From a virus (lineage: Duplodnaviria > Caudoviricetes), in the IMG/VR virus record IMGVR_UViG_3300015374_000002, positions 1 to 64,000 of that record: a stretch of 64,000 nucleotides of DNA. The stretch is one strand, 5' to 3'. A program made the position numbers and the translations under genes. Positions 1,502 to 56,217 of the stretch are shown here, one piece after another. Below the pieces are notes generated by a model. It was not told the origin of the DNA, made no database searches, and saw only the letters and a list, made by a program, of their open reading frames with translations. Numbering within the stretch: the first letter of the stretch is position 1; every line of letters starts with the position of its first letter.

Positions 1502-1957
1502 TCAGACTTCCTGCGTATCCACGGTGAACACGGTCGCCGACGGCCGGAACAAACGATGGATGGGCCCGTACAGGTTGATGACCTCTTCCGGGCGGTGCGG
1601 GGATCCCGCTTCACCCAGTTGGTTGGGGACCAGCACCAGGTACCAGCCGTCCTTGTTGGTGCGCGCCAGCTCGTCCATCGGGCCGTCCACGTCCGGGTAG
1701 TGCGCGGCGGCGAACCACTGCATCCCGTCACGGTCCTGCCAGACGTCGCCGACCTCCGGCATGCCGTCAGCGGGCACCTTCCGGACGATCATGACGTTCT
1801 CGTCGTTGCGGTTGACATACACGAGCGCGCCTCGGTGCGGATCGGCGAAGACGAAGAACTCCGCACTGCCGTCGGGCTGGGATCCCTCCTCCAAGACGGT
1901 GACGTTCTTGAACGTGACGTCCAGCACTTCGCCCTTGAGATACTTCGGATTGTCCAT
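1502..1957 (-). CDS. hypothetical protein
   Basis: ATG at 1957 after AGAGCGACCAACCAGGAGG leader. Confidence 0.75.
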   Translation of the reverse strand: MDNPKYLKGEVLDVTFKNVTVLEEGSQPDGSAEFFVFADPHRGALVYVNRNDENVMIVRKVPADGMPEVGDVWQDRDGMQWFAAAHYPDVDGPMDELARTNKDGWYLVLVPNQLGEAGSPHRPEEVINLYGPIHRLFRPSATVFTVDTQEV

Positions 1958-2029
1958 GGATCCTCCTGGTTGGTCGCTCTTTGCCGACCCTGTCAGCATA
2001 CAGTCATTTAGCGCCATGTGCAATGGTGG

Positions 2030-2185
2030 TCATCGGGTGGACCGCCTGGCGTTCATGCGGTCTTTGATCTGCTGCTGAGTCGGGGGCGTGTAGCGGTGCC
2101 AGCCTGCGGCCGTGGTCCAGCGCTGGCCGTGGTCTCGCTGTTCAAGGCCGCAGTGGGTACAGCCGGACGGGGCGGGGTTCGCCAT
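2030..2185 (-). CDS. small hypothetical protein (CxxC, 51 aa)
   Basis: MANPAPSGCTHCGLEQRDHGQRW...; AAGGAG RBS. Confidence 0.6.
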   Translation of the reverse strand: MANPAPSGCTHCGLEQRDHGQRWTTAAGWHRYTPPTQQQIKDRMNARRSTR

Positions 2186-43804: not shown

Positions 43805-43805
43805 G

Positions 43806-44742: not shown

Positions 44743-44754
44743 CAGGGACTTACG

Positions 44755-44826
44755 TACTCCGCGCGGGGATCGAACCCGCACCTCCTGATTGAGAATCAGG
44801 TATCCAGACCACCAGACCAGCGGAGC
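44755..44826 (-). tRNA. tRNA-Glu(CTC)
   Basis: Loop UUCUCAA. Confidence 0.8.
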
Positions 44827-44892
44827 TTGTAGGGCCAGGCAGCGCATACCCAGATCACCCCTCCGATTCCTGGGGATGGCGCCTGACCCTTC

Positions 44893-45408: not shown

Positions 45409-45470
45409 ATCCTCTCCTTCGCGCGGGGTCGCTCTTCCCGCACCCGCGAAGACGTAGACCGTCTTCGCCG

Positions 45471-45543
45471 TACCCCCGCCGGGATTCGAACCCGGATTTC
45501 GACGCTTAAAAGGCGCCTACTCTGCCAATTGAGCTACAGGGGC
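45471..45543 (-). tRNA. tRNA-Lys(TTT)
   Basis: Loop CUUUUAA. Confidence 0.9.
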
Positions 45544-45546
45544 ATG

Positions 45547-45690
45547 TCACGCAGGATTGGCGATCACCATCCCGCAGTCCTCACAGTGCGGCGGCCAGAC
45601 CAGCCACCCCATCCACTCCTCCGAACGATCCAGTCCCTCCGGAACGATCCTGCCGCCGCACTGCTGACAGTCGGGATAGAACCAGGTCAT
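45547..45690 (-). CDS. small Zn-ribbon protein
   Basis: CQQCG ... CEDCG; GGAGG RBS. Confidence 0.6.
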   Translation of the reverse strand: MTWFYPDCQQCGGRIVPEGLDRSEEWMGWLVWPPHCEDCGMVIANPA

Positions 45691-45704
45691 AGACCCTCCG
45701 TACG

Positions 45705-45777
45705 TGCGCCGTGAGAGATTCGAACTCCCAACCATCCGGGTAGAAACCGGCCGCGCTATCCATTGCGCCAACGACGC
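45705..45777 (-). tRNA. tRNA-Arg(TCT)
   Basis: Loop UUUCUAC. Confidence 0.9.
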
Positions 45778-45805
45778 GAACCTTTCACGATCCGAAACGA
45801 TCGTT

Positions 45806-45988
45806 TCATTCCATCGCCACGCCCGGTCCTAGAACCGGGCAGAACGACACTGGCACCAGCCGCCCGGTGGCCATGTCGCTGCACGCGAGGCAGATCTCCG
45901 CCGGGATCGTGTGGCGGCTTTCCCCGTCGGGCCGGTAGTCGATCGACTCGTGCCAGCCCGACTCCGGGTCGTCCGGGTCATAGCCCAT
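45806..45988 (-). CDS. small hypothetical protein
   Basis: MGYDPDDP...; overlaps upstream gene. Confidence 0.5.
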   Translation of the reverse strand: MGYDPDDPESGWHESIDYRPDGESRHTIPAEICLACSDMATGRLVPVSFCPVLGPGVAME

Positions 45989-46385
45989 ATTTCGCCTCAT
46001 CCTTCACGTACACCATGTAGGCGATCACGCCCGCTTCGTAGGCGGCCCGCCGAGCGTCGGCGTCGGTGTCGTACTTGGTGCCGTCCAACGGGTGCCTGAT
46101 GATGTCGCAGCCGCCTTCGGGCTTGTACTTGATCTGTCTGATACTCAGCTCGATCTTGCCGTCGTCGGCTGCGACCACGGACGGCGAGGACATCACCTTG
46201 CACAGTCGCGGGAACGACACTCCCCACTCGGCGTGAGTCACTATCGGCGGCCCGCCGTCGGCGTAGGTCGGGAAGCGGCCGTAGGGGGCTTCATTGAAGG
46301 TCCAGATGCGGTAGCGACCGTCGTGCCAGTCGTATTCCTGGCCCTGCATCGGCGGGTAGTCGGTAACGTTCTGTGGCGTGTCCAT
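45978..46385 (-). CDS. hypothetical protein
   Basis: Promoter TTGACC-18-TATCTT, GAGCGAC + GGAGG. Confidence 0.75.
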   Translation of the reverse strand: MDTPQNVTDYPPMQGQEYDWHDGRYRIWTFNEAPYGRFPTYADGGPPIVTHAEWGVSFPRLCKVMSSPSVVAADDGKIELSIRQIKYKPEGGCDIIRHPLDGTKYDTDADARRAAYEAGVIAYMVYVKDEAKYGL

Positions 46386-46457
46386 GGGGTCCTCCGTGGG
46401 GGTTGGTCGCTCTCCAACACCCCAAAGATACATCCATTTAGCGTCTTAGGTCAAGGG

Positions 46458-46548
46458 CGGAAAATGGAGGACTCGAACCCCAGGGCCGTTCACACCAGCC
46501 CTCATCCGGTTTAAATCGGCGGCCACCTCCTTGGTGGCGTCATTTTCC
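46458..46548 (-). tRNA. allo-tRNA-like 8/4 tRNA, 8-nt anticodon loop AUUUAAAC
   Basis: 8-bp acceptor GGAAAAUG/CAUUUUCC, 4-bp T stem, 6-bp D stem, long variable arm, G73. Confidence 0.7.
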
Positions 46549-46574
46549 CCCACCGTGTTGAGGGGTGGGTCCAG

Positions 46575-46658
46575 CGGAAGGCGGAAGACTCGAACTTCGG
46601 CCGCCGCCGACGGCCACGCGGATTCCAGCCGCGTCCCGGCACCTGCCGGTCACCTTCC
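46575..46658 (-). tRNA. 8/4 tRNA-Ser(GGA)
   Basis: 8-bp acceptor, 4-bp T stem GAAG/CUUC, 5-6-bp D stem, loop CUGGAAU, G73. Confidence 0.8.
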
Positions 46659-46659
46659 A

Positions 46660-46735
46660 TGGTCCTCGGAGCAGGAGTCGAACCTGCCGTCGCCCGGTTA
46701 TCAGCCGGGTGCCTTCACCGCTTGGCCACCCGAGG
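46660..46735 (-). tRNA. tRNA-Ile(GAT)
   Basis: Loop CUGAUAA, ACCA end encoded. Confidence 0.85.
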
Positions 46736-46739
46736 AAAG

Positions 46740-46824
46740 CGGAGAGGGAGGGTATCGAACCCCCGCCGGTGTGACCCGGGCAGCGGCGTAGCAAGCCGTC
46801 CCATTACCTCTCTGGCACCTCTCC
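46740..46824 (-). tRNA. tRNA-Ser(GCT)
   Basis: Loop UUGCUAC, long variable arm. Confidence 0.85.
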
Positions 46825-46925
46825 ACGATACTTCCATCTAGCGCCTGCCGGTGCTACCTTGGAGTGGTACGCCCCTGGTCCGGCTCTGCACCGCATCCCG
46901 CCAGGGGCACGGCCATTTCTGGGAC

Positions 46926-47024
46926 TGGTGCCGACCCCGGGATTCGAACCCGCCCTACCGCCTTGGCAAGGCGATGTGCGACCGCTGACACTTCACCCAC
47001 AAGTTCCGTGACCGGTGGACCGAC
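46926..47024 (-). tRNA. tRNA-Gly(GCC)-like with displaced 5' acceptor strand
   Basis: D, anticodon (UUGCCAA) and T arms plus ACCA are intact; the best acceptor partner lies about 24 nt upstream. Confidence 0.55.
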
Positions 47025-47073
47025 GACTCGGGTGTGGACGGGGCCGGGGCGACCATCCTCCGGTCACGGAAAG

Positions 47074-47143
47074 AGCCCAACCCCGGAGTCGAACCGGGCA
47101 GGCCGTTCGTACCAAGAACGGGTGCACACCAGGTGCGAAGGGC
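47074..47143 (-). tRNA. tRNA-Thr(GGT), atypical
   Basis: Loop UUGGUAC; U.U mismatches in acceptor. Confidence 0.65.
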
Positions 47144-47192
47144 AAACGGGTAGGGGTGTCCGGGCCGTGAACGCCCGGCCCGGACACCACCG

Positions 47193-47265
47193 CTCTGGGA
47201 TCAGGAATCGAACCTGAGCAAACCGGAACCAAAATCCGGCCGCCGAGCCAGCACGGCATCCCAGA
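47193..47265 (-). tRNA. tRNA-Gln(TTG)
   Basis: U1-A72, loop UUUUGGU. Confidence 0.8.
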
Positions 47266-47270
47266 ATGCG

Positions 47271-47341
47271 AGCCCAAGGGCGGAATCGAACCGCCTCGAA
47301 CGCCTTACGGGGGCGCTGCTCTGCCAGTGAGCTACAAGGGC
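47271..47341 (-). tRNA. tRNA-Thr(CGT)
   Basis: Loop CCCGUAA; U.U mismatches in acceptor. Confidence 0.75.
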
Positions 47342-47356
47342 GTGACCCCGAAGGGC

Positions 47357-48034
47357 CTACATGTCCGGCCGGGGCTGAAACTCCGGCCTGGAGCTGATCT
47401 CCTCAACCCAGTCCGACAGGGAGATCTCTTCGCCGGAGCCACTATAGAAGGCGAGATCGTCCACCTTCGCATGCAGTTCCACGTCATGCGGCATTGGCAG
47501 GATGCCTTCTGCTTCGGCGGTGTCGCGGTGCTTAACGACCGCGAAGGCGAGGCGGAACAGGGTGTCCTGGTTCCGTTTGCGCTTGTCCGGATTAGGTTCT
47601 GCCGGATGCCTGCCGTTCAGCTTGTTCGGCCCGGAGGCTGCGCGGATCCGTTTGATGTCGGAATGCCGCAAGCTGATGATCTGCTTGTCTTTGAGGATTT
47701 TCGTACGCCACAGGTCATATTCGCCCTTGGCGGCGAAATACTTGCGTTTCCCCTCTTCGCCCAGATTCCAGCACTGCTGATGGTAGGAGTCCATCTCTGC
47801 TCTCCGCGTCGCGATCTGGTCGTCCAGGGCACGCAGCAGACGAACCAGAGCCTGCTCGGTCCGTTCGATCAGCGACGGCCCGGAGAGCATCCCCCAAAGC
47901 TGTTGACGCTTTTCGGTCACCGAGACGTCGTCGTGGCGACGAGGGTCGGGATAGCCGATGTTTTGACGGATCAGCAGGTCGAAGCCTTCAGGCTCCAGCT
48001 CTTGAATGGCGGCAAGGCTCACGGGGATGGCCAT
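47357..48034 (-). CDS. hypothetical protein
   Basis: 225-aa ORF, lower GC than flanks. Confidence 0.7.
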   Translation of the reverse strand: MAIPVSLAAIQELEPEGFDLLIRQNIGYPDPRRHDDVSVTEKRQQLWGMLSGPSLIERTEQALVRLLRALDDQIATRRAEMDSYHQQCWNLGEEGKRKYFAAKGEYDLWRTKILKDKQIISLRHSDIKRIRAASGPNKLNGRHPAEPNPDKRKRNQDTLFRLAFAVVKHRDTAEAEGILPMPHDVELHAKVDDLAFYSGSGEEISLSDWVEEISSRPEFQPRPDM

Positions 48035-48109
48035 GGGTGGCGTGTTCCTTCTTCCGGGGGTTGCCGTCCCGGCGCCGGACAAGACACCGGGACGATCCTG
48101 TGTGGTGCG

Positions 48110-48182
48110 TGCGCCCGCCGGGACTCGAACCCGGATCATCCGCATCCTTAGTGCGACGCCTCTGCCATTGGGCCACAAGCGC
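48110..48182 (-). tRNA. tRNA-Leu(AAG), short variable loop
   Basis: Loop CUAAGGA; A34; no long variable arm. Confidence 0.75.
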
Positions 48183-48218
48183 TTCAGGACGGTTCTACAG
48201 GCCGCCACCGACAAAACG

Positions 48219-48287
48219 AGCCGCCCCCCGGAATCGAACCGGGCCTACCCCCTTACAAGGGGGGCGTCGCATCCATGGCGCGGCGGC
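48219..48287 (-). tRNA. tRNA-Thr(TGT), atypical D arm
   Basis: Loop CUUGUAA. Confidence 0.65.
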
Positions 48288-48297
48288 AGACGGAAGA

Positions 48298-48604
48298 GGG
48301 TGGCGACGGAAAGGATTCTGCAGCCAAACCGCCCAACCAGCCCGGCGGTCTCCTTCCCGTTCTTCTGTGGCTGTCCACGCCACCCCCGTGTGGACCCGGC
48401 GGGATTCGAACCCGCATCTCCGGCTCTCCCTATGACGCACACCGCCCCCGGACGGAGGTGGCCACCTCGTATCCGGATCGCGCGGTCACGCCCGATTGAG
48501 TTACGGGCCCTGGCAGATGATGGCGACGAGGGGGACAAAGCCTCCAAAGCGCCCAACCAGCCCGGCGCGCTCCCTCTCGTCCTTCTGCGGCTGTCCACGC
48601 CACC
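48298..48604 (-). repeat. two diverged copies of a structured ~87-nt element (48298-48385, 48519-48604)
   Basis: Shared cgcccaaccagcccggcg and ttctgYggctgtccacgccacc; each copy closed by a GGUGGCG/CGCCAYC stem. Confidence 0.75.
48391..48510 (-). ncRNA. 120-nt tRNA-Ala-like RNA (G3.U70 acceptor + T arm, non-canonical centre)
   Basis: GGGCCCG/CGGGUCC-A acceptor, GCGGGUUCGAAUCCCGC T arm, no recognisable anticodon loop. Confidence 0.6.
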
Positions 48605-48610
48605 ACCTGA

Positions 48611-48685
48611 GCTGTCGGGCGGAGAATCGAACTCCGGCCGCCCCTCGCGCGAGGAGAACGACCCTGCCACACGTCTCAACGACGC
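48611..48685 (-). pseudogene. degenerate tRNA (CGC anticodon)
   Basis: T arm and anticodon arm present; poor acceptor stem. Confidence 0.45.
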
Positions 48686-48878
48686 GACCCGACACCGTGA
48701 CGGTTCCTCCGGATCACCTCGGGAGCAGCCGACAAGCCCGAGAGGGCGGGAGCGACCCTATTCGGTACCCTTCCGTCGCGAGCCGGTGCGGACTCGAACC
48801 GCCGTTGACCGTCACCGGCCGTCCCCACTCGCGACGCGGGGACGGTCGGCCGCCGGAGTCGAACCGGCATACCCAATG

Positions 48879-48948
48879 CTCCCGGACCAGGAATCGAACC
48901 TAGAGACACAGGGGCCAGAACCCTGCTGACGGCCACCGCCATCCGGGA
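48879..48948 (-). tRNA. tRNA-Gln(CTG), short D arm
   Basis: U1-A72, loop UUCUGGC. Confidence 0.75.
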
Positions 48949-49010
48949 AGGAGCAGACCCGGTTGCAGCCGGGCCCGCCAATTATCCGCCTGCTCTACGG
49001 ACGGGCAAAT

Positions 49011-49439
49011 CTACCAGGAGTCCCACACGCCGAAGTGGCGGTGGCGCGGGTCCGGGGATTCGACGTCCCAGGCGGCCTGTACGGCATCCTGGGCGCCTCG
49101 CAGCATCTTGCCGACCTCCCGGCCAACGGCCCGATCGGCAGCGCGCAGGGCGCGTTCCTGACGGTTGGAGATGCCGCCGATCACGTGCCCCAGGTTGAAG
49201 GTACGCGGGTAGGTGCCCGCCTCCAGGCGGCGGGTCACCCGGTCCGGGCGCGGACGGTGCCCGGCGCGCTCAGCCTGGGCCAGCGCGGCGGCGCTGTAGC
49301 GCAGCGCGGACCGGATCTCGTTGGCGGTGCTCGGGTAGGTGGCACGCCACCAGGCGAAGATGTAGAGGCGACCGTCGGCGTCGTAACGCCGGGTGCCAGT
49401 GCGGTGGTTGTAGGGGACGTGGTGAACAGTACGGGACAT
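49011..49439 (-). CDS. hypothetical basic protein
   Basis: MSRTVHH... 142 aa, GGAG RBS. Confidence 0.65.
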   Translation of the reverse strand: MSRTVHHVPYNHRTGTRRYDADGRLYIFAWWRATYPSTANEIRSALRYSAAALAQAERAGHRPRPDRVTRRLEAGTYPRTFNLGHVIGGISNRQERALRAADRAVGREVGKMLRGAQDAVQAAWDVESPDPRHRHFGVWDSW

Positions 49440-49524
49440 TCGGACTCCGACGTGCGGGCCCGCCCCGGATGGGCAAGCCGTCTACGTCTCACCCGCCGTG
49501 AACATCACATTCGCCTCCTTCGCG

Positions 49525-49597
49525 TAGGGGTGGCCGGATTTGAACCGGCATCATCCGCATTTTGAATGCGGCGCCTCTGCCGTTGGACTACACCCCC
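49525..49597 (-). tRNA. tRNA-Leu(CAA), short variable loop
   Basis: Loop UUCAAAA; no long variable arm. Confidence 0.8.
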
Positions 49598-49598
49598 G

Positions 49599-49670
49599 TG
49601 CGCCGTCAGGGACTCGAACCCTGCTCTCTCGATTAAGAGTCGAGTGCATAACCATCCATGCTCACGGCGC
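49599..49670 (-). tRNA. tRNA-Lys(CTT)
   Basis: Loop CUCUUAA. Confidence 0.9.
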
Positions 49671-49778
49671 TTTCCGTCCGGCCGGTTAGCGTCGGCCTGC
49701 CGGACGATCCCTGACCCGCCCGGGGGACGCCAATCCCGCCGGTGCAGTATCAGGGCACCCCACCCAAGTGGGGTGTAG

Positions 49779-49849
49779 AGCCGTACCGGAGAGTCGAACT
49801 CCGCTCCCCGCGTTGGAAGCGCGGGACATCGCCACAATGCTTGTACGGC
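49779..49849 (-). tRNA. tRNA-Gly(TCC)
   Basis: Loop CUUCCAA, U73. Confidence 0.85.
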
Positions 49850-49850
49850 A

Positions 49851-49918
49851 TGGGGACCAGGCGGGGAATCGAACCCCGCTTTCCTAGGATTTCCGTGCCC
49901 TTTCCGGGGGCCTGGTCC
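49851..49918 (-). pseudogene. tRNA-like element lacking a proper anticodon arm
   Basis: Acceptor, D and T arms and CCA present; anticodon arm collapsed. Confidence 0.5.
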
Positions 49919-50084
49919 ACGGCGGGAAACGGCCCGGGTGCCCACGAGTGATCAGCTCGCAAACACTGACGGTATCCGTAGGGGTTTCCCCCTTTCCGAT
50001 CCGGTTCATCCCGCGTGCTCGACGACGCTCCGGATCCCCCTTCGCTGGCAACCCAGCTACTAAGTTCACCTGCACCGTCGTGCG

Positions 50085-50156
50085 TGGCTCCCCAGAGAGT
50101 CGAACTCTGTCCTCTGGATCTTCAGTCCGGCGCTCATCCCCATGAGCTTGAGAGCC
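50085..50156 (-). tRNA. tRNA-Phe(GAA)
   Basis: Loop CUGAAGA. Confidence 0.8.
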
Positions 50157-50370
50157 TTTCGATCTCACCCGGCCGCAGAAGCTAGTGGTCGGGTGTCTTG
50201 TTCTCGTCGTCTATGACGCGTGTGGCCGCTGCCGCTGTGGCATCCTTCTTGGCCGCTATCCGCTTATTGATCTCTCTTATGTCTGCCTCGATCTCACGCA
50301 GTTCGCGTGCCTTTCGTCCGAACATGTCGCCTCCTGGCTAGGGGGGTGTCAACCTGGCGGGGAATTTTCG

Positions 50371-50589
50371 TTACGGTGCCTGGTCGAAGTATCGGCGGCC
50401 ACGTTCGAACGCCGTCGTCCGATGTACGCCGTGCACGCCCTCCGTTGCCGCCAGGACGCGTCCCAGCGCCGTCTTGTAGGCGCTACGGGCGGTCGCCGCT
50501 CCAGGGAGTGGCCCGTCCGCGTTGTTGACTCTGGCGTCTTCACGGGCGATGTCAGCCAGCAGGTCTTCAACAAGCTTCTGTATGTCCAT
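50371..50589 (-). CDS. hypothetical protein
   Basis: GAGCGAC + AGGAG leader. Confidence 0.6.
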   Translation of the reverse strand: MDIQKLVEDLLADIAREDARVNNADGPLPGAATARSAYKTALGRVLAATEGVHGVHRTTAFERGRRYFDQAP

Positions 50590-50719
50590 GGTTCTCCTGT
50601 CGGGTCGCTCTCCCGTTGGGTGGTGGGCTGCTGTACAGCGCCGCCCACCAGGCGCTCCCCCGCACGGCCGTGCGGGGGCCGGTCACCCATACTCGATGAC
50701 TTTCAGGTGATTCCGGACG

Positions 50720-50791
50720 TACCCGCGACAGGATTCGAACCTGCATCCTCGACGTTCGTAGCGTCGCGCTCATCCATTGAGCTACACGGGC
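50720..50791 (-). tRNA. tRNA-Arg(ACG)
   Basis: Loop CUACGAA. Confidence 0.9.
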
Positions 50792-50910
50792 ATGATGCAC
50801 GACAGGGCCAGGGACTTCCGTCGCAATGCGTGTTACCGCTCTTCCAGCCCTGCCGTGCACGATCTCCTGGCCGACCACGCGGGCGTCTCACCCCGCGACC
50901 GGACCCCCAC

Positions 50911-51138
50911 CTAACCGGCCAGGTCGTTCTCACCGCCCAGTGCGGCGCATTCCGTGCACGGGCGCGTCCTCAGCGGACCAGGCCGCCAGAACAGGATCAG
51001 CGCCCCGAACGGCGGAATGATCGCCGCTATGGACGGGTTGCAGAACTCGTCCTCACCCTTGAAAATCGTTGGCTTCCACCAGCAGGTGAGCGTGGTGGGC
51101 GACCACCACATCAGGCGGCCGATGTTGAACTGCTTCAC
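50911..51138 (-). CDS. hypothetical protein
   Basis: 75-aa ORF, AAAGG RBS. Confidence 0.5.
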   Translation of the reverse strand: MKQFNIGRLMWWSPTTLTCWWKPTIFKGEDEFCNPSIAAIIPPFGALILFWRPGPLRTRPCTECAALGGENDLAG

Positions 51139-51165
51139 ACTCGCCTTTCGGATCAGCCGGGAAGG

Positions 51166-51339
51166 TCACTTCTTGTTGTTGATCTTTGCGCTACGGGCGA
51201 CCGTCCTGGCCCGCTCGTAATGCGCATCCGACTCCGCCTTGTCGCCGTCCAGCTCCGCGATGAAACCCTTCGCGGCATGCTTGGCGACCTGGTCAAGCTG
51301 CTTGTCGGTCAACTTCCCATACTCCGCATTGCCCGCCAT
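51166..51339 (-). CDS. hypothetical protein
   Basis: MAGNAEYG...; GAGCGAC + AGGAGG. Confidence 0.65.
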   Translation of the reverse strand: MAGNAEYGKLTDKQLDQVAKHAAKGFIAELDGDKAESDAHYERARTVARSAKINNKK

Positions 51340-51507
51340 GGGCGCCTCCTGTGAGACTCCCGAGTCGCTCAACCGGGAGAAGGTGCGGGTGCCGCTTCAC
51401 TACGGCCTAGGCCACGACCGACCGGCTTTCTCCGCAACGCGTACGCTTCGCCGACCAGCCTCCCAAGGGCCAGAGCCCGGGGTAAGGGTTCCCGGGCGCT
51501 CCCGCCG

Positions 51508-51662
51508 TCCCTGGTGCTGGATTCGAACCAGCAACTTCCGCCCCCGTATTCGGGATTACCCGGCCAGGTCCCCGCCCTGCCCGACTAGTACGGGCTGAAC
51601 GGTTTACCCCTGACAAACGGGCCCCGGCGGGACGATGCCTCTACCAATTGGGCTACCCAGGG
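51508..51662 (-). ncRNA. 155-nt tRNA-like RNA with ~88-nt structured insert in place of the anticodon loop
   Basis: Canonical 5' half (CCCUGGGUAGCCCAAUUGGUAGAGGCA) and 3' half (GCUGGUUCGAAUCCAGCACCAGGGA). Confidence 0.7.
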
Positions 51663-51695
51663 CTGGAGTGAGGCGTGATGTGCCTCACTCTCGCG

Positions 51696-51771
51696 TACCC
51701 GCAGCAGGATTCGAACCTGCACCATGCCCCACTCCGGAGGTGGGTGCCCTGTCCAGTTGGGCGATACGGGC
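51696..51771 (-). tRNA. tRNA-Arg(CCG)
   Basis: Loop CUCCGGA. Confidence 0.85.
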
Positions 51772-51831
51772 GTGCGTCAGATCGTGGACGCCTGTCGAGG
51801 GTCGAACCGGCTCACGATCTGACTTGCGACG
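51771..51831 (-). ncRNA. bulged-stem RNA with T-loop, copy 1
   Basis: GUCAGAUCGUG/CACGAUCUGAC stem enclosing GGUUCGA. Confidence 0.55.
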
Positions 51832-52032
51832 TCACGTGTCGTCGCCGTCCGAAGCGTACGGGTTCACCTGGTAGAGCTGCTCCCGAAGCTTGTCGTAGTC
51901 GAGAACGAGGGCCTCAGTTCGACCGTCACTGGGGATTCGCATGAGGACGGCATGCCCGTCCTCATCCCACCCCAACTCGTAGGGGTTGCCGACTTTGTCA
52001 TGACACGTTTTCCACGATCCACTGAACTTCAT
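51832..52032 (-). CDS. hypothetical protein
   Basis: AAAGGAGG RBS, 66 aa. Confidence 0.65.
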   Translation of the reverse strand: MKFSGSWKTCHDKVGNPYELGWDEDGHAVLMRIPSDGRTEALVLDYDKLREQLYQVNPYASDGDDT

Positions 52033-52056
52033 GCTGTCCCTCCTTTCTCTGTGACG

Positions 52057-52132
52057 TACCGCTGGCCGGAATTGAACCGGCGACCTTCAGATTGAGAATC
52101 TGACGACCCGAACCAGCAGAGTCTTCAGCGGC
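52057..52132 (-). tRNA. tRNA-Glu(CTC)
   Basis: Loop UUCUCAA. Confidence 0.8.
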
Positions 52133-52242
52133 CTTGTGACATCCGGACTCGAACGAGCCGGTACGTATGCCCACCGTACGAATTACCGCGCGGACCTTCG
52201 TACAGTGCGGTACCGCTGGGGAGTGCCACGCCCCCCGGGCCG

Positions 52243-52315
52243 TGCTCGCAGCAGGATTCGAACCTGCGGTCTCCTCCTCCGGAGGGAGGCGCCTTGTCCT
52301 CTGGGCCATACGAGC
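52243..52315 (-). tRNA. tRNA-Arg(CCG)
   Basis: Loop CUCCGGA. Confidence 0.85.
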
Positions 52316-52431
52316 GTGCGTTAGATCATGGGCGCCTGCCGGGGAGTCGAACCCCTCTACGACTTGGATGCGCATCCGCTGCCGCTTCGCCGGACCTGGA
52401 GTCGAACCGGATCATGATCTAACTTGCGACG
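52315..52431 (-). ncRNA. bulged-stem RNA with two T-loops, copy 2
   Basis: GUUAGAUCAUG/CAUGAUCUAAC stem (compensatory changes versus copy 1). Confidence 0.55.
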
Positions 52432-52447
52432 TTGTACACCGTCGCCG

Positions 52448-52522
52448 TGCCGCTGACCGGAATCGAACCGGCGACCTCCAGGGTGAAAGCCTGGCAACCC
52501 AACCAGCAGGGTCTTCAGCGGC
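52448..52522 (-). tRNA. tRNA-Glu(TTC)
   Basis: Loop CUUUCAC. Confidence 0.8.
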
Positions 52523-52560
52523 ATTGCCCGATTGCGGCTCGGGGCGGCCGTCGGACAACG

Positions 52561-52710
52561 TCAACTCTTCCCCTTGGAAGCACGGGCCGCGAGGCGCCTT
52601 TCGTAGTTCTGTTTGGCCCTAGCGTTCGACTCCCTAAGGTCCTTCCTCATCTGAGCTACGCCCTCGATCAGCACGACGACGGCGTCACCAACTGTCAACT
52701 TTCTGCGCAA
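52561..52710 (-). CDS. small hypothetical protein
   Basis: TTG start after AGGAGGTGATC. Confidence 0.5.
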   Translation of the reverse strand: MRRKLTVGDAVVVLIEGVAQMRKDLRESNARAKQNYERRLAARASKGKS

Positions 52711-52947
52711 TATGATCACCTCCTCCTGGTCATATTCACGATCGGCCCTCGGTCCCACCCCTGCGCGGCGCGTGTACACCACGCCGCACAGGCTCCCGAG
52801 GTCTCTCCGCCCCGTCCGCCGATCGCTAAGCCGCCTTCTGTCCGAGGGTGACGGCCCCCATACCCATGGGTGGACACTGTGCTGAGAGGGCCGCAGGTCC
52901 CCGCGTACGGCGTACCTGCGCTGCCAGGCCAAAGGACCCTCTCACCG

Positions 52948-53018
52948 CGCCTGCGACGGGATTTGAACCCGCGCCCCCCACGCTGACAACGTGGTGCTCT
53001 GCCTTGAGCTACACAGGC
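52948..53018 (-). tRNA. tRNA-Asp(GTC)
   Basis: Loop UUGUCAG, G73. Confidence 0.9.
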
Positions 53019-53051
53019 TTGCCGTGCAGGCGGTCACCCGCACGGGGATGG

Positions 53052-53183
53052 TTACTCGTCGTGCCAGGAACCTGGCCCGCACGGGTTCTTCTTGCAGTCA
53101 GCGCACACGCCCGGATTGGCGATGTCGTTGACCATCATGTGAACGCCGCAACAGGTGCAGTCCGCAACGCCGGATTCAGCCAT
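53052..53183 (-). CDS. small Cys-rich protein
   Basis: CTCCG ... CADC; GAGCGAC + AGGAGG. Confidence 0.6.
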   Translation of the reverse strand: MAESGVADCTCCGVHMMVNDIANPGVCADCKKNPCGPGSWHDE

Positions 53184-53219
53184 ATCGTCCTCCTGGTAAA
53201 GGGGTCGCTCTCCCTTTGC

Positions 53220-53401
53220 GATCACAGGCATTTTGCGGGGGAGTGGCCCTCCTGGCTGACGTCCGGACGTCTCCAGGTCAGTTCCCCCTCCGTGATGGGA
53301 TTGCCTCGATTGAGGACGACCGGCCACCTCACCGGATCCCCGGCGGTTCCCGGCAGGCGACCGAAGCCGCCTACCGGACTGGAGACTCATCACGGGTGAT
53401 C
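53220..53401 (-). ncRNA. candidate pseudoknotted ncRNA
   Basis: Two interleaved perfect 8-bp helices, closing stem and a C(UUCG)G hairpin. Confidence 0.55.
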
Positions 53402-53450
53402 GGCGCGTTTTCCCGGGAACCACCCCGAAGATTGGCGCCGAACCACTGCG

Positions 53451-53522
53451 TAGCGACAGCAGGGTTCGAACCTGCGACCTTCTCGTTATGAGCGAGGCGC
53501 TCTACCACTGAGCTATGCCGCC
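53451..53522 (-). tRNA. tRNA-Met/Ile2(CAT)
   Basis: Loop CUCAUAA, elongator-type. Confidence 0.85.
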
Positions 53523-53541
53523 AGAAATCATCGACAGACGT

Positions 53542-53766
53542 CTACGCCAGGTCATAGCCGCCACGCGGGTCGATATCGTCAATAGCGATTCCTTCGGCAA
53601 GACACAGGGCTCCGCGAGCATCTGCCATCGACGTTCGCAGATCAGCCAACGCCACCGAGTCACCGCGCTCCTTCGCCAAGCGCATGTCACCTGCCAGACT
53701 GAGCATCAGGTACTTGGGGTGAAGTTCCAACCCAAGGGGGATCTTGGTCACATGAACCTCCAGCAT
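53542..53766 (-). CDS. hypothetical protein
   Basis: 74-aa ORF; start uncertain. Confidence 0.45.
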   Translation of the reverse strand: MLEVHVTKIPLGLELHPKYLMLSLAGDMRLAKERGDSVALADLRTSMADARGALCLAEGIAIDDIDPRGGYDLA

Positions 53767-53897
53767 TGGGGGTGGTAAAAACGGACCCCCCGGCGAACGG
53801 GTTACCCCCGCCCTACGCGGCCCTCAGGGGCTCTCAGGTCCGCGATTTCGCATGGATCGGGGGATCCGGTCGGGACGTCCGCGAGAACGTCCCTGCG

Positions 53898-53969
53898 TGC
53901 GGATGACAGGATTCGAACCTGCGCACTCCTCGCCCCAAACGAGGTGGGCTACCACTGCCCTACATCCAC
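53898..53969 (-). tRNA. tRNA-Pro(TGG)
   Basis: Loop UUUGGGG; G1-C72. Confidence 0.8.
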
Positions 53970-53974
53970 AGTGA

Positions 53975-54043
53975 CGGGTACTTCGGGGGCTGTTTCCTCT
54001 TGCGTCGGAGCGACCAACCACGGAGCGCTCCCCGAAGTACCCG
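53975..54043 (-). ncRNA. 14-bp hairpin with 41-nt loop antisense to the GAGCGAC leader
   Basis: cgggtacttcgggg/ccccgaagtacccg perfect stem; loop contains CUCCGUGGUUGGUCGCUCC. Confidence 0.5.
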
Positions 54044-54046
54044 AAG

Positions 54047-54116
54047 TGGACCGGCGGGATCCGAGCCCCCGCATCCGCCCCCCGTCGGAGGCGAGTCTTC
54101 CTTAGACTGACGGCCC
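54047..54116 (-). pseudogene. degenerate tRNA-Ala-like element
   Basis: GGGCCG/CGGUCC-A acceptor; altered T loop. Confidence 0.4.
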
Positions 54117-54156
54117 TGATGATGTTCCGATCATCTGCGGTGTGTGCGCAACACAG

Positions 54157-54229
54157 TGGACCTGAGAGGACTCGAACCTCCCGCCTACGCCCTGCCGAGG
54201 CGTCGCTCTACCTGATGAGCTACAGGCCC
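54157..54229 (-). tRNA. tRNA-Ala(GGC)
   Basis: G3.U70, loop UCGGCAG. Confidence 0.85.
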
Positions 54230-54415
54230 ATATGGGACGGGCGCCGGGTACAGCCGGTTCTCCCGGTGTGGCGATCGGCTTCTGCTTCTCGCCCGTCCAG
54301 AGGGGACTTACCCGACCCCTCGGCGGTGGGACATATCCGGTCCCTGCGGAGGCAGCCTTTCCAGTGTTTTTGAAAGGAGATTCCGGTCGGCTGCCACCCA
54401 CCTGTCTTCTCCTTG

Positions 54416-54481
54416 TGGACCGGCCAGATTCGAACTGGCGACTATCCCCGCTAAGGGTTGCCACGCCAACGGCTGCGGTCC
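54416..54481 (-). pseudogene. degenerate tRNA-like element (AGC?)
   Basis: 6-bp acceptor, good T arm, irregular anticodon loop. Confidence 0.45.
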
Positions 54482-54559
54482 TGGGGATCATCCACGAGGT
54501 GCTAGACCGAACGTCGGTGACTAGTACGACGCTCACGCTTGCCTCCCGGCTTCACCCTT

Positions 54560-54632
54560 GCGCACCGACGGGATTCGAACCCGCACCCTTCCCCTGGCCT
54601 TACGGGGTGCTCTCGCCATGAGCTGCGGCGCG
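54560..54632 (-). pseudogene. tRNA-like element with 9-nt anticodon loop
   Basis: Cloverleaf with loop GUAAGGCCA. Confidence 0.5.
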
Positions 54633-54771
54633 TCCGACGGTCAGGTGTGCAGGTGGCCTGCCTGCGTCTGCCGCCGGAAGTTGGTGGGGCCCGCAGGTGA
54701 GCGCCGTGGCGCAGGAACCCCTTCGCGTCTGACTGTGCGCCAGCGCGTCGGGCACCGTATTGGACCCCGCG

Positions 54772-54841
54772 TGGACCTGGAGAGATTCGAACTCGTCTTC
54801 CCGCACCTTGCAAGGGTGGGGCGTCCCCTGGACTCAAGCCC
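54772..54841 (-). tRNA. tRNA-Ala(TGC), short D arm
   Basis: G3.U70, loop CUUGCAA. Confidence 0.7.
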
Positions 54842-55323
54842 GTGGGGGTGGATGCCGGTCGCCGGGTGCACGAATCGTGCGCCGACCGGTAGCGGGAATC
54901 ACTGACCATCTGGGGTTAGCTACCCGCCGGGCCATGGCGCCGCGTCATCGCGGAACCTGTTGGCTTCCGGCATCCACCCGATCCCCTTGCCTCATTCGCG
55001 GCGCATGACAGTTACCGGCGGACCGGGTTGTGGGCTGTGAATGAGGTTCGGGAATTCTTTCATATGCCCCGGGATGGCGCCCGGGGCGAAGTCGGCGTGT
55101 ACGGGACCGTGGGTCGCCGGAAGCGAGTCGGCGCGGTGTTGCCGCGTTCGCTTGGCCCGTGAGGCGTTTGCTTGGCGACAGGTCCGGGCTAGGGTCGCAT
55201 ATCCGGCGGCCCACGGAGCCCGTGCACACCTTTCTTAGGTGTCTTCTTCCACTGTTGAGTTTTCAACGCGCCCCGGCTGGGGCTCCTACCCGTACACACC
55301 CCGTGGTGGCGGTGTGGGGTGCG

Positions 55324-55395
55324 CACCGATGGCTGGATTCGAACCAGCAGTCCTCGCCTTAACAGGGCGGCGCTCTGCCATTGAGCTACATCGGT
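55324..55395 (-). tRNA. tRNA-Asn(GTT)
   Basis: Loop CUGUUAA, G73. Confidence 0.9.
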
Positions 55396-55633
55396 ATGGA
55401 GTTTGGGGCCGGGGCGGTGGTGAAGCCGCCCCGGGATTCAGGTTCCCGGTCGGGCGGCTTCGGTGTCATCCGGTTTTCCGGATTTACACGTCTGCCACCC
55501 GTTCGGAGGCGAAGCCCGTGTCGGGGTGCACCAGGCGCGTGTGGCTCTGGGTCCCGGTGTTCGGGTCTGTGGCCTGTCGGTTGGTCACCTGCTGTGCACC
55601 TCCTGCCGTGTTCTTCGTTCTTTCGATAACCCA

Positions 55634-55663
55634 AAGGTACAGTCATCTAGCACGAGACGTCAA
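55634..55663 (-). promoter_or_regulatory. promoter at head of tRNA array
   Basis: TTGACG-18-TACCTT with GCTAGATG in spacer and an AT-rich UP-like tract. Confidence 0.7.
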
Positions 55664-55704
55664 GAGGTATTTCTGGTTTCTTTTGTATAGACAAGAACCG
55701 CAGG

Positions 55705-56124
55705 TCAGGCCGCTGCCAGGCCCTCCTCCGGCTCGCCCTCGGCCAGGACGGATCCGGCGGGCAGCGTCTCCTGCTCCGGCGGAGACGGCGGGGAGACCAT
55801 GTCGGCGAGGCGGCCGACCGTGGCGGCGGCGGCCACCGGGTCGGCACGCAGCAGCAGCCCGGCCAGTTCGCCGACCACCTGCGCAACCATGGCGGGGGGT
55901 AGGAGGTAGAGGGCGCGGACCCGGTCGGTGGTGTCGTCCACCACGCCGCCGACGGCGTAGGCGATAGTGATCTCTCCGGCGACGGGGTGTTCGATGAGGC
56001 ATCCGTCGGTGCCAGTGACGACGATGCCGTAGCGGGTGTCCACCTTGCGGCCGTTGTCGTCGTGGGTCATGGCCTGTCCGGAGATACTGCCGGGCAGGAA
56101 CCGGGGGTTGGTGGTTTCCATCAT
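55705..56124 (-). CDS. hypothetical protein
   Basis: 139 aa, GAGCGAC + GGGAG leader. Confidence 0.7.
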   Translation of the reverse strand: MMETTNPRFLPGSISGQAMTHDDNGRKVDTRYGIVVTGTDGCLIEHPVAGEITIAYAVGGVVDDTTDRVRALYLLPPAMVAQVVGELAGLLLRADPVAAAATVGRLADMVSPPSPPEQETLPAGSVLAEGEPEEGLAAA

Positions 56125-56217
56125 GTGGTGCTCCCAGGGGTCGCTCTTACCCGTTGAAGATTGGCCGCATCATGACACAGGGGTGCGGCGGGCGGTAGCG
56201 AGGCGGTAACGGGGCGT

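What the first reader, a model, noticed from the sequence alone, without database searches (positions are those of the whole stretch)
53975..54043. tRNA-array hairpin whose loop is antisense to the GAGCGAC + RBS leader: candidate trans-acting master sRNA
Seen: between two tRNA-like genes, a perfect 14-bp stem displays the loop sequence CUCCGUGGUUGGUCGCUCC on the transcribed strand. This pairs with the 1957 leader (GAGCGACCAACCA, 13 contiguous bp, then GGAG across one bulge). It also pairs with the 46385 leader (GAGCGACCAACC..CACGGAG) and, via the 7-8-nt core, with the other motif leaders. Inference: tRNA processing would release a small stable RNA able to occlude or remodel many phage RBSs at once, acting as an early-gene switch. 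Caveat: the 7-mer alone is expected by chance at this GC content, and GUCG/CGAC in the loop can self-pair.
Basis: inference. Interest (0 to 1): 0.7.

Follow-up and report, generated by a model that had tools for sequence, protein, structure and literature searches.

The report
Anti-leader hairpin in phage tRNA array
A very stable hairpin sitting in a tRNA-sized slot of a soil phage's tRNA gene array carries, in its loop, the mirror image of a short signal found in front of about thirty of the phage's genes, so it may be a small RNA that switches some of them off, but nobody has yet seen the RNA and a distant relative lacks it.

Summary
Arms 53975-53988 and 54030-54043 form a perfect 14-bp stem with a 41-nt loop (z about -5). 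The hairpin fills a 76-nt slot between a non-canonical tRNA-like gene (54046-54117) and tRNA-Pro, on the strand of all 37 tRNA genes. The loop is antisense to GAGCGAC plus the RBS. It pairs 13+4 bp with the gene-1957 leader and 12+6 bp with the gene-46385 leader.

GAGCGAC is the loop of a stem-loop with variable stems, found in 31 leaders. The "CAACC" extension is therefore only one stem variant, and most leaders offer only about 8-9 bp.

Evidence for an antisense RNA:
- The extended match is unlikely by chance (about 0.003).
- UCGCU is exposed in an inner pentaloop.
- Motif leaders pair preferentially (0 of 100 shuffled loops match this).
- A relative keeps the spacer.
- A second relative has another long hairpin that displays GUCGCUC.

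Evidence against:
- There are no RNA data.
- The best predicted energy is ordinary (16 of 100 shuffles are as good).
- The 7-mer occurs at chance frequency.
- A 127-kb relative has the same leader motif and a syntenic tRNA array but no anti-motif.

Verdict: a plausible narrow-spectrum anti-leader RNA (confidence about 0.4). "Master switch" is not supported. A functionless inverted leader copy remains nearly as likely.

The parts
54030..54043 (-). 5' arm of the hairpin as read in the minus-strand RNA (CGGGUACUUCGGGG)
   Evidence: (I7)
53975..53988 (-). 3' arm of the hairpin (CCCCGAAGUACCCG)
   Evidence: (I7)
53989..54029 (-). 41-nt loop that holds the inverted leader copy
54008..54014 (-). anti-motif GUCGCUC (plus strand reads GAGCGAC). 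The central UCGCU is predicted to be unpaired, with opening energy 0.21 kcal/mol
54022..54025 (-). anti-Shine-Dalgarno CUCC (plus strand reads GGAG)
   Evidence: duplexes
54001..54020 (-). inner 7-bp helix (UGGUUGG / CCGAC.CA) that closes the UCGCU pentaloop. It sequesters the flanks of the antisense stretch
54046..54117 (-). tRNA-like gene with an 8-nt anticodon loop ('gacg'). Its 3' end lies 2 nt before the hairpin
   Evidence: ARAGORN at relaxed threshold. Not called
53897..53969 (-). tRNA-Pro(tgg). Its 5' end (RNase P site) lies 5 nt after the hairpin
54156..54229 (-). tRNA-Ala(ggc), upstream end of the 186-nt spacer
1953..2037 (-). promoter-leader cassette of gene 1502-1957. It is the best predicted partner (13+4 bp, about -13.3 kcal/mol)
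46380..46464 (-). promoter-leader cassette of gene 45978-46385, the second extended partner (12+6 bp, about -9.2 kcal/mol)
55596..55668 (-). nearest upstream promoter-like cassette on the tRNA strand. No terminator-like site on the minus strand lies between it and the hairpin

Best explanation
The hairpin is a non-tRNA member of the phage's tRNA polycistron.

Proposed mechanism (each step is inferred, none is shown):
1. It is transcribed with the tRNAs on the minus strand.
2. It is cut out as a stem-closed RNA of about 76 nt. The 3'-end processing of the tRNA-like gene in front frees its 5' end, and RNase P cleavage at tRNA-Pro behind frees its 3' end.
3. It acts as a short-range antisense RNA against the phage's own leader stem-loops.
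4. Its inner pentaloop UCGCU meets the exposed AGAGCGA loop of a leader hairpin in a loop-loop contact.
5. Where the flanks also match, pairing spreads over the 3' stem strand and the Shine-Dalgarno sequence and blocks ribosome binding. This is strongest for the leader of gene 1957. It is weaker for genes 1398, 5132, 56124, 2942 and 46385.

The hairpin, its position, the complementarity and the predicted accessibility are shown. I read it as a narrow regulator of a handful of promoter-proximal genes, not as a switch for all motif-bearing genes.
For: 1. Structure. The stem is a perfect 14 bp with z about -5. In 308,562 bases of this phage group only 3 hairpins have perfect stems of 13 bp or more and loops of 25 nt or more. 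Two of these 3 carry GUCGCUC on the gene-sense strand (this one and L100 905-966). That compares with 0.014 copies expected on the given strand in their 122 loop nt. For perfect stems of 12 bp or more it is 2 of 15, with 0.048 expected. The thresholds were chosen after seeing the data.

2. Placement. The hairpin fills a 76-nt slot, 2 nt after a tRNA-like gene and 5 nt before tRNA-Pro. It lies on the strand of 37 of 37 tRNAs and 1.6 kb downstream of a promoter cassette. No minus-strand terminator-like site lies between.

3. Complementarity beyond the 7-mer. An anchored 13-mer is expected 0.126 times genome-wide and 0.02 times in the array. A nearby GGAG adds a factor of 0.022.

4. Accessibility. 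Opening UCGCU costs 0.21 kcal/mol. Opening GAGCGAC in 27 leaders costs a median of 2.2 kcal/mol.

5. Preference. The 4 best of 98 predicted 5' regions all carry the motif (-13.3, -12.1, -11.4, -10.9). The mean is -4.2 for 27 motif leaders against +1.6 for 71 others. Against 100 dinucleotide-shuffled loops, 8 targets at or below -9 is reached by 2 of 100. The motif-minus-non-motif gap is reached by 0 of 100.

6. Relatives. In run X5 a 3129-nt contig of a relative aligns colinearly over 53781-54229 (48 substitutions, 6 gaps). The same contig has lost three neighbouring spacers (52720-52946, 53220-53448, 53523-53781).

7. Second example. In relative contig L100, the MFE fold leaves GUCGCUC as the only 7-nt single-stranded bulge of a hairpin with a stem of about 18 bp. 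This hairpin lies between a stop codon and a terminator. Its flank (GCCUGG) also matches a GAGCGAC-CCAGGC site 260 nt upstream.
Against: - No RNA evidence of any kind exists. All 7 runs that hold the DNA are DNA runs kept as contigs.
- The best single energy is unremarkable: 16 of 100 shuffled loops do as well.
- The preference test is partly circular, because the hairpin was picked for its complement to the motif.
- Opening the full 18-22-nt antisense stretch costs 11.6 kcal/mol, because an inner helix holds it.
- The 7-mer alone is at chance frequency on this strand: 7 seen, 9.8 expected.
- Leader stems vary and covary: mean 4.74 bp against 3.49 ± 0.22 with swapped partners, 0 of 500. This argues that selection acts on each leader's own hairpin, not on pairing of the flanks with one common RNA.
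- In relative L113 the orthologous leader of gene 46385 reads GAGCGACCGACACC, not ...CCAACC.
- G001 has DnaB 66% identical, a syntenic 33-tRNA array and the same leader motif. It has no GUCGCUC in its array. Its 91-nt RNA in the same slot shows no leader preference: +11.1 for 35 motif leaders against +10.3 for 123 others.
- The differences of the X5 relative inside 53975-54043 could not be read, because the table was cut.
- A profile of 18 promoter-leader cassettes does not hit the plus strand at 54008 even at E 10.
Confidence: 0.4

Rival explanations
1. The hairpin is a structural spacer element with no trans-acting role. Stable stem-closed hairpins abut tRNA ends elsewhere in this array and may help processing or insulate the folding of neighbouring tRNAs. 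On this view the loop happens to hold an inverted, partly decayed copy of one of the many repeated leader cassettes. That copy would have been brought in by recombination or template switching, and kept similar by gene conversion among repeats.
For: - Other strong hairpins sit 1-7 nt from tRNA ends: 47004-47071, 47155-47188 and 44159-44192.
- G001 keeps a stem-closed structured RNA in the same slot (z -2.95) but not the anti-motif. What is shared between the two phages is therefore structure, not the antisense sequence.
- Promoter-leader cassettes are repeated about 18-30 times at 80-88% identity, which gives ample substrate for recombination.
- The tRNA array is inverted relative to the genes in G001 compared with this phage, so inversions have happened in the lineage.
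- Cluster K mycobacteriophages likewise carry a single start-associated repeat in the reverse orientation with no known role (PMC3203893, passages).
Against: - The 13-mer is perfect and the match extends on both sides, so a neutral remnant would have to be recent.
- A perfect 14-bp stem is itself improbable without selection.
- A second, unrelated long hairpin with the anti-motif exposed exists in a relative.
- The spacer is kept in a relative that deleted three neighbouring spacers.
Confidence: 0.35
2. The element works at the DNA level. The 14-bp inverted repeat would be a protein-binding or recombination site, or the repeats would flank a small invertible or mobile segment. On this view the orientation of the leader copy is incidental.
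For: - Both strands fold equally well, so nothing in the energy favours RNA over DNA.
- Two hairpins with different arms but a GAGCGAC-bearing core occur in different contexts in related phages, here and in L100.
Against: - The arms of the two hairpins are unrelated in sequence.
- No contig in 4 runs shows the flipped form or a joint at the arms (table 5).
- 41 bp is short for recombinase-mediated inversion (established knowledge, recalled).
- The motif's 38:7 strand bias shows that it acts in an orientation-dependent way.
Confidence: 0.08
3. It is the remnant of a plus-strand gene start (leader plus RBS) whose gene has decayed. The antisense relation to the tRNA strand would then be an accident of history.
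For: On the plus strand the order GTCG-GAGCGACCAACC-ACGGAG is that of a leader. A TGTTTCCT lies where the cassettes have TGTATCTT.
Against: - No start codon follows the GGAG within 5-12 nt. The first GTG is 20 nt away and opens a 20-codon frame.
- The cassette profile gives no plus-strand hit here at E 10.
- No sigma-70-like site occurs on either strand in 52800-56200.
- The local alignment does not extend beyond the RBS.
- This reading does not explain the perfect 14-bp stem around it.
Confidence: 0.06
4. It is a Y-like RNA that partners the phage's Ro60 (TROVE) protein: a long stem plus a large loop, next to a tRNA-like module.
For: - The phage encodes a TROVE-domain protein at 32564-34249(+) (Pfam 3.4e-15; phrog_850).
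- Y RNAs are described as 80-130 nt with a long stem and a large internal loop (PMC4201824, passages).
Against: - The hairpin lies 20 kb from the Ro60 gene, whereas YrlA RNAs are encoded next to it (PMC4201824).
- Better candidates lie directly upstream of the gene at about 32200-32460(+). They have GUCCGAG...UUCGGAC closing helices and a GGTTCGACTCC T-arm (my reading).
- The GNCGAAN0-1G motif near the 5' end is absent from the hairpin.
- No Rfam family hits it.
Confidence: 0.03

Closest known systems
Regulatory RNAs cut from tRNA precursor spacers (3'ETS-leuZ of the E. coli glyW-cysT-leuZ transcript)
   Same: Both are non-tRNA pieces of a tRNA polycistron that are freed by tRNA maturation and act by base pairing with other RNAs (PMC8383071, passage).
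   Different: 3'ETS-leuZ is a sponge for the Hfq-bound sRNAs RyhB and RybB. This element would pair directly with mRNA leaders. It is phage-encoded, lies between two tRNA(-like) genes, and is closed by a 14-bp stem. The likely hosts are actinobacteria, which lack Hfq (recalled). Release and pairing are untested here.
Loop-loop ('kissing') antisense control, as in CopA/CopT of plasmid R1 and RNA I/RNA II of ColE1 (recalled, not read here)
   Same: Complementary sequences are presented in hairpin loops on both partners: UCGCU here and AGAGCGA in the leaders. An RBS would be occluded after the helix spreads.
   Different: Those systems are cis-encoded with full complementarity and one target. This one is trans-encoded, has 8-13 contiguous bp and up to about 30 potential partners.
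Start-associated sequences (SAS/ESAS) of Cluster K mycobacteriophages
   Same: Both are short asymmetric repeats just upstream of many start codons, often with an adjoining inverted repeat, in one orientation. In four phages a single copy lies in the opposite orientation and is not tied to a gene start. The authors leave open whether an RNA or a protein binds them (PMC3203893, passages).
   Different: The sequence differs (GGGATAGGAGCCC against a GAGCGAC loop 6-20 nt upstream of the RBS). No hairpin around the reverse SAS copy, and no position in a tRNA array, is described in the passages I read.
Stable non-tRNA RNAs of the phage T4 tRNA cluster (species 1 and 2) and tRNA-like-plus-hairpin units of murine gammaherpesvirus 68 (both recalled; searches found no paper to read)
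   Same: A viral tRNA gene cluster also yields small structured non-tRNA RNAs through tRNA-processing enzymes. In the herpesvirus case a tRNA-like gene directly precedes a hairpin.
   Different: No sequence or structural relation was tested. No target is known for the T4 RNAs. The herpesvirus hairpins feed the eukaryotic microRNA pathway, which does not exist here.

Membership tests
tRNA-transcript-derived regulatory RNA (3'ETS-leuZ type) | Encoded in a spacer of a tRNA polycistron, on the tRNA strand | tested here: met
   It lies between tRNA-like gene 54046-54117 and tRNA-Pro 53897-53969, and all 37 tRNAs are on the minus strand. A promoter cassette lies upstream with no minus-strand terminator-like site between.
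tRNA-transcript-derived regulatory RNA (3'ETS-leuZ type) | Accumulates as a discrete processed RNA | not testable with these tools
   No RNA run holds the sequence, and all runs are kept as DNA contigs.
tRNA-transcript-derived regulatory RNA (3'ETS-leuZ type) | Base-pairs with defined partner RNAs, with a regulatory effect | tested here: inconclusive
   Complementarity and preference for motif leaders were computed. The best energy is not exceptional (16 of 100 shuffles), and no functional assay was possible.
Kissing-loop antisense RNA | Complementary bases are exposed in hairpin loops of both partners | tested here: met
   Opening UCGCU costs 0.21 kcal/mol, with unpaired probability 0.71-1.0. 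The leader GAGCGAC has a median opening energy of 2.2 kcal/mol in 27 leaders. The leader flanks form stems beyond the partner-swapped control.
Kissing-loop antisense RNA | Cis-encoded, fully complementary to a single target | tested here: not met
   The partners lie 7.6 and 52 kb away and the match is 13+4 or 12+6 bp.
   G001 keeps the motif (42 copies against 13) and a syntenic array. It has no GUCGCUC in the array and no leader preference in the same slot. The closer relative in run X5 keeps the spacer, but its loop could not be read.
tRNA | Cloverleaf recognised by ARAGORN or Rfam RF00005 | tested here: not met
   No call covers 53970-54045 at the default or relaxed ARAGORN setting, or in Rfam at E 10.
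Y RNA / YrlA | Encoded next to the Ro60 gene; GNCGAAN0-1G near the 5' end; internal T- and D-like arms | tested here: not met
   It lies 20 kb from the TROVE gene. The motif is absent (against PMC4201824). No T arm lies inside the hairpin. There is no Rfam hit. I do not know whether Rfam holds a YrlA model. The paper's supplementary table of phage YrlA RNAs could not be seen.
Intrinsic terminator | G+C-rich stem with a short loop, followed by a U run | tested here: not met
   The loop is 41 nt. The stem is followed by UCACU and then tRNA-Pro. The scan finds no minus-strand site in 52800-56200.

The most novel reading that the evidence does not exclude
This phage group runs a two-part RNA code. 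About 30-40 genes per genome begin with a leader hairpin that shows the loop AGAGCGA. The phages also make dedicated 'anti-leader' RNAs: long perfect-stem hairpins that expose GUCGCUC. One is cut from the tRNA array here, and another lies in a 3' UTR in relative L100. These RNAs would dock on the leader loops by kissing and then zip into the RBS of the leaders whose stems match. That would time the shut-off of promoter-proximal genes once the tRNA array is expressed.
Probability: 0.15. Interest if true: 0.8.

Novelty: new variant of a known kind. Interest (0 to 1): 0.5.

Why it matters
Large tRNA arrays in phages are usually read only as codon-supply devices. If one slot of such an array makes an antisense RNA aimed at the phage's own leader signal, the array would also be a timing device. 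It would also give a concrete binding partner for a class of unexplained repeats. These are the 'start-associated' repeats upstream of many actinophage genes, whose partner (RNA or protein) has been an open question since they were described in Cluster K mycobacteriophages (PMC3203893). The claim can be tested directly with a reporter and compensatory mutations. If the rival reading is right, the hairpin is just a structured spacer with a recombination scar, which is ordinary.

Tried and rejected
- Rfam. No family other than weak microRNA-shaped hits (E 0.29-6) covers the hairpin.
- RNA evidence. No RNA holder is listed among 7 runs.
- Reading the relative's hairpin. Read laying showed that the X5 contig spans it, but the difference table was cut ('88 more are not shown').
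- Close relatives in IMG/VR. The neighbouring protein 55705-56124 found none. The promoter-plus-motif pattern found none.
- Species genomes. There were 36 single, apparently chance, pattern matches.
- RNAcofold and plain duplexfold were uninformative. cofold cannot place intermolecular pairs inside a closed loop, and duplexfold gave -25 to -54 for everything. They were replaced by duplex energy plus opening energies.
- A Markov simulation timed out and was replaced by an analytic expectation.
- Extended homology of the plus strand to gene 1957 beyond the RBS was not supported.
- MAFFT alignment of the slot elements of this phage and G001 shows no reliable homology outside the tRNA(-like) genes.
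- The third long perfect-stem hairpin of the group (G001 106711-106783, loop with two CCUCC) looked like an anti-SD RNA. It pairs worse than 39-40 of 40 shuffled loops, so it gives no support.
- Y-RNA reading: rejected (see rival explanations).
- Literature. 'GAGCGAC' plus phage gave only primer hits. 'tRNA array' plus 'small RNA' plus phage gave nothing relevant. The T4 stable-RNA search found no paper to read.
- A protein comparison of the L100 reading frames with this genome was not carried out, so the genomic counterpart of the L100 hairpin in this phage is unknown.
- Earlier findings of this scan were not open.

Full report
**What the window is.** The window is the first 64 kb of an 85,789-base IMG/VR virus record, estimated 74% complete. 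GC content is about 66%. Nearly all predicted genes run on the minus strand. PHROG hits identify a major head protein, a portal-MuF fusion, a terminase, DnaB, a sliding-clamp-like protein, dCTP deaminase and a 1661-aa DarB-like protein. The portal is about 42% identical to those of Streptomyces phage Gilgamesh and of Gordonia and Brevibacterium phages. This is therefore an uncultured actinophage-like virus. The DNA occurs in rhizosphere and soil metagenome runs. ARAGORN finds 37 tRNA genes, all on the minus strand, between 41947 and 55395.

- The arms 53975-53988 and 54030-54043 are 14 nt long, perfectly complementary and 41 nt apart.
- The RNA folds at -41.5 kcal/mol with z -4.8 to -5.5. The plus strand folds equally well.
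- No Rfam family explains the hairpin.
- In transcription order the spacer reads as follows:
  - tRNA-Ala(ggc), 54229-54156
  - 38 nt
  - a cloverleaf with an 8-nt anticodon loop, 54117-54046, which ARAGORN calls only at a relaxed threshold
  - 2 nt
  - the hairpin
  - 5 nt
  - tRNA-Pro(tgg), 53969-53897
- The hairpin therefore occupies a 76-nt slot, the size of a tRNA, bounded by the sites where tRNA 3' and 5' processing enzymes cut. That such cuts would free a stem-closed RNA is an inference from established tRNA maturation, not something observed.
- A promoter-like cassette lies 1.6 kb upstream on the same strand. The terminator scan finds nothing on the minus strand in between.

**What the loop is antisense to.**
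- Listing every GAGCGAC in the genome changed the picture. The 7-mer occurs 38 times on the minus strand and 7 times on the plus strand, with 9.8 expected per strand.
- 31 copies (30 minus, 1 plus) sit 6-20 nt upstream of an RBS and a start codon.
- 18 of them follow a conserved promoter box, CGCTAAATGNNTGTA.
- The bases flanking the motif are complementary to each other and differ from leader to leader. The mean stem is 4.74 bp. With partners swapped it is 3.49 ± 0.22, and 0 of 500 swaps reach the observed value.
- The motif is thus the loop (AGAGCGA) of a leader stem-loop with variable, covarying stems.
Exactly two leaders share it, those of genes 1957 and 46385. Their proteins are unrelated.

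**Is the extended match chance?** Under a first-order Markov model, an antisense 13-mer anchored on the motif and identical to any leader is expected 0.126 times in the genome. It is expected 0.02 times in the array. A GGAG within four offsets multiplies this by 0.022. The loop is best read as an inverted copy of a 1957-type leader with two small indels: GTCG-GAGCGACCAACCA-c-GGAG. However, a profile of 18 cassettes does not find it at E 10. Homology also stops at the RBS.

**Can it pair?**
- In the predicted fold the antisense stretch forms an inner 7-bp helix that leaves UCGCU in a pentaloop. Opening that loop costs 0.21 kcal/mol. Opening the whole 18-22-nt stretch costs 11.6 kcal/mol.
- In the leaders, GAGCGAC is also accessible, with a median opening energy of 2.2 kcal/mol in 27 leaders. 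Loop-loop docking is therefore structurally reasonable. This follows automatically, though, if one hairpin is the mirror of the other.
- I scored 98 predicted 5' regions with duplex energy plus opening energies. The four best all carry the motif: genes 1957, 1398, 5132 and 56124, at -13.3 to -10.9. Gene 46385 scores -9.2. Motif leaders average -4.2 (n=27) against +1.6 (n=71).
- I compared these scores with 100 dinucleotide-shuffled loops:
  - The best energy is ordinary: 16 of 100 shuffles do as well.
  - The breadth, 8 targets at or below -9, is reached by 2 of 100.
  - The motif preference is reached by 0 of 100.
- The preference is partly circular, since the hairpin was chosen for this complement.

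**Relatives.**
1. Contigs of the source metagenome are the same phage at 99.98-100% identity.
2. Run X5 holds a relative. Its 3129-nt contig aligns colinearly across 53781-54229 with 48 substitutions and 6 gaps. It has lost three nearby spacers. The hairpin-bearing spacer is therefore retained, but the table was cut and I could not see what changed in the loop.
3. G001 is an IMG/VR record of 126,865 bases, 95% complete, with DnaB 66% identical. Its array of 33 tRNAs is in largely the same order, although it is inverted relative to its genes.
   - It has the same leader hairpin, GGTGTTGGGAGAGCGACCCGACACC, behind a different promoter box, with 42 copies on one strand and 13 on the other.
   - Its slot between a homologous tRNA-like element and tRNA-Pro(tgg) holds a 91-nt stem-closed Y-shaped RNA (z -2.95). 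That RNA has no GUCGCUC.
   - No anti-motif occurs anywhere in that array.
   - The slot RNA shows no leader preference: +11.1 against +10.3.
4. In 89,925 bases of same-system contigs, contig L100 carries a hairpin on the gene-sense strand, just after a stop codon and before a canonical terminator. Its stem is 13 bp perfect, extending to about 18 bp. Its MFE fold leaves exactly GUCGCUC as a 7-nt bulge. The neighbouring GCCUGG matches a GAGCGAC-CCAGGC site 260 nt upstream.
5. In a survey of 308,562 bases of the group, only 3 hairpins have perfect stems of 13 bp or more and loops of 25 nt or more. Two of them carry the anti-motif, against 0.014 expected. With perfect stems of 12 bp or more it is 2 of 15. 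With one mismatch allowed it is 2 of 131, with 0.55 expected and P about 0.10. The thresholds were set after the fact, so this is suggestive only.
6. The third such hairpin, in G001, has CCUCC-rich loops but pairs worse than shuffled controls.

**Weighing.**
- For a real anti-leader RNA:
  - the improbable perfect stem
  - the processing-ready slot
  - the non-chance extended complementarity
  - the exposed pentaloop
  - retention of the spacer in X5
  - the independent L100 example
- Against:
  - no RNA data
  - an ordinary best energy
  - leaders whose stems evolve for their own folding rather than for a shared partner
  - an orthologous leader in L113 with a different stem
  - absence from G001
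- I put a narrow antisense function at about 0.4. I put a structured spacer carrying a functionless inverted leader copy at about 0.35. Smaller shares go to a DNA-level element, a decayed plus-strand gene start, or a Y-like RNA.
- The Y-RNA idea arose because the phage encodes a TROVE/Ro60 protein. Likelier Y RNAs lie directly upstream of that gene, as the literature leads one to expect (PMC4201824, passages).

**Comparison with known systems.**
- It would work like spacer-derived RNAs of tRNA precursors (3'ETS-leuZ; PMC8383071, passage). It would also work like kissing-loop antisense RNAs (recalled).
- It fails the cis-encoded, single-target criterion of the kissing-loop family. Its accumulation and effect, which define the spacer-derived family, are untested.
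- The leader motif itself resembles the start-associated sequences of Cluster K mycobacteriophages. These also include a lone reverse-oriented copy of unknown meaning (PMC3203893, passages).
- I found no paper that describes an anti-leader RNA in a phage tRNA array. The library lacks most subscription journals, and supplements were closed.

Noticed in passing
window-wide, e.g. 1953-2037, 2379-2466, 46380-46464 (-); genome 64001-85789 as well: A phage-wide leader system. 31 GAGCGAC copies sit 6-20 nt upstream of an RBS and start codon, as the loop of a stem-loop with covarying stems. 18 of them lie behind a conserved promoter box, CGCTAAATGNNTGTA. The distant relative G001 has the same loop with a different promoter box (TTAAATACCGGTAC). 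The loop-plus-stem also resembles the D-arm region of tRNAs (GTTGG.AGAGCGAC).
   Followed up: partly
window 32564-34249 (+) and about 32200-32460 (+): A TROVE/Ro60-like protein gene lies on the minority strand. Directly upstream are two repeated modules with GUCCGAG/CACCGAG ... UUGAUUCGGAC/GGG closing helices and a tRNA-like T arm (GGTTCGACTCC). These are probably Y (YrlA-like) RNAs. Rfam gave no hit there at E 5.
   Followed up: partly
window 54046-54117 (-): A tRNA-like gene with an 8-nt anticodon loop (four-base 'anticodon' gacg), seen only at a relaxed ARAGORN threshold. Its counterpart in G001 (L009 about 17817-17889, minus) has a 7-nt loop, CUUGCAA. It is either a decaying tRNA or a quadruplet-reading or processing-signal tRNA mimic.
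   Followed up: partly
loci L174, L122, L150, L160 (relatives); window 46458-46549 (-): In related contigs many GAGCGAC leaders follow a tRNA-like T-arm-plus-acceptor element (cccggTTCgcGAccggg cggggcacg) instead of a promoter. This suggests tRNA-like punctuation that lets tRNA-processing enzymes cut polycistronic mRNAs just ahead of the leader hairpin. In the window a weak tRNA-Sec-like hit (37 bits) sits just upstream of the 46385 cassette.
   Followed up: no
L100 905-966 (relative contig, sense strand is minus): A hairpin with a stem of 13-18 bp lies between a stop codon and an intrinsic terminator. Its predicted fold leaves exactly GUCGCUC single-stranded. Its flank also matches a GAGCGAC-CCAGGC site 260 nt upstream in the same transcript.
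   Followed up: partly
window 48750-48756 (+): A second antisense copy of the motif lies in a non-coding part of the tRNA array (minus RNA reads GGGUCGCUCCC, predicted as a 3-bp mini-hairpin with loop UCGCU). The surrounding fold is not better than shuffles (z +0.41).
   Followed up: partly
window 47004-47071, 47155-47188, 44159-44192: Other strong hairpins (12-16-bp stems) start 1-7 nt from tRNA ends in the array. 47004-47071 has z -3.09 and contains GGGCGACCATCC on the plus strand, a 2-mismatch copy of the 12-mer.
   Followed up: partly
window 48391-48510 (-) and 48778-48865 (-): Rfam calls a 120-nt tRNA (31.5 bits), which may carry an insertion or intron. ARAGORN's 88-nt tRNA-Ala(cgc) nearby is not confirmed by Rfam.
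   Followed up: no
window 44893-45408 (-): A small protein inside the tRNA array hits the HAD domain of 'Swiss Army Knife' RNA-repair proteins (PF18143, 2.7e-10). Together with Ro60, this points to an RNA repair or quality-control theme.
   Followed up: no
L009 12395-18130 against window 41947-55395: The tRNA arrays of this phage and G001 are syntenic (for example Pro-Arg-Phe-Lys-Leu-Gln-Thr-Gln-Thr-Ser-Ile-Ser-Lys-Glu-Glu-Met-Val-Val-His-Tyr). They have opposite orientation relative to DnaB. G001's array is far more compact, with no small genes between the tRNAs.
   Followed up: partly
window 42534-42545 (+), inside tRNA-Tyr 42474-42558 (-): The mature tRNA-Tyr would contain AGUUGGUCGCUC, an 11-of-12 complement of the leader 12-mer. 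It is probably inaccessible inside the folded tRNA.
   Followed up: no
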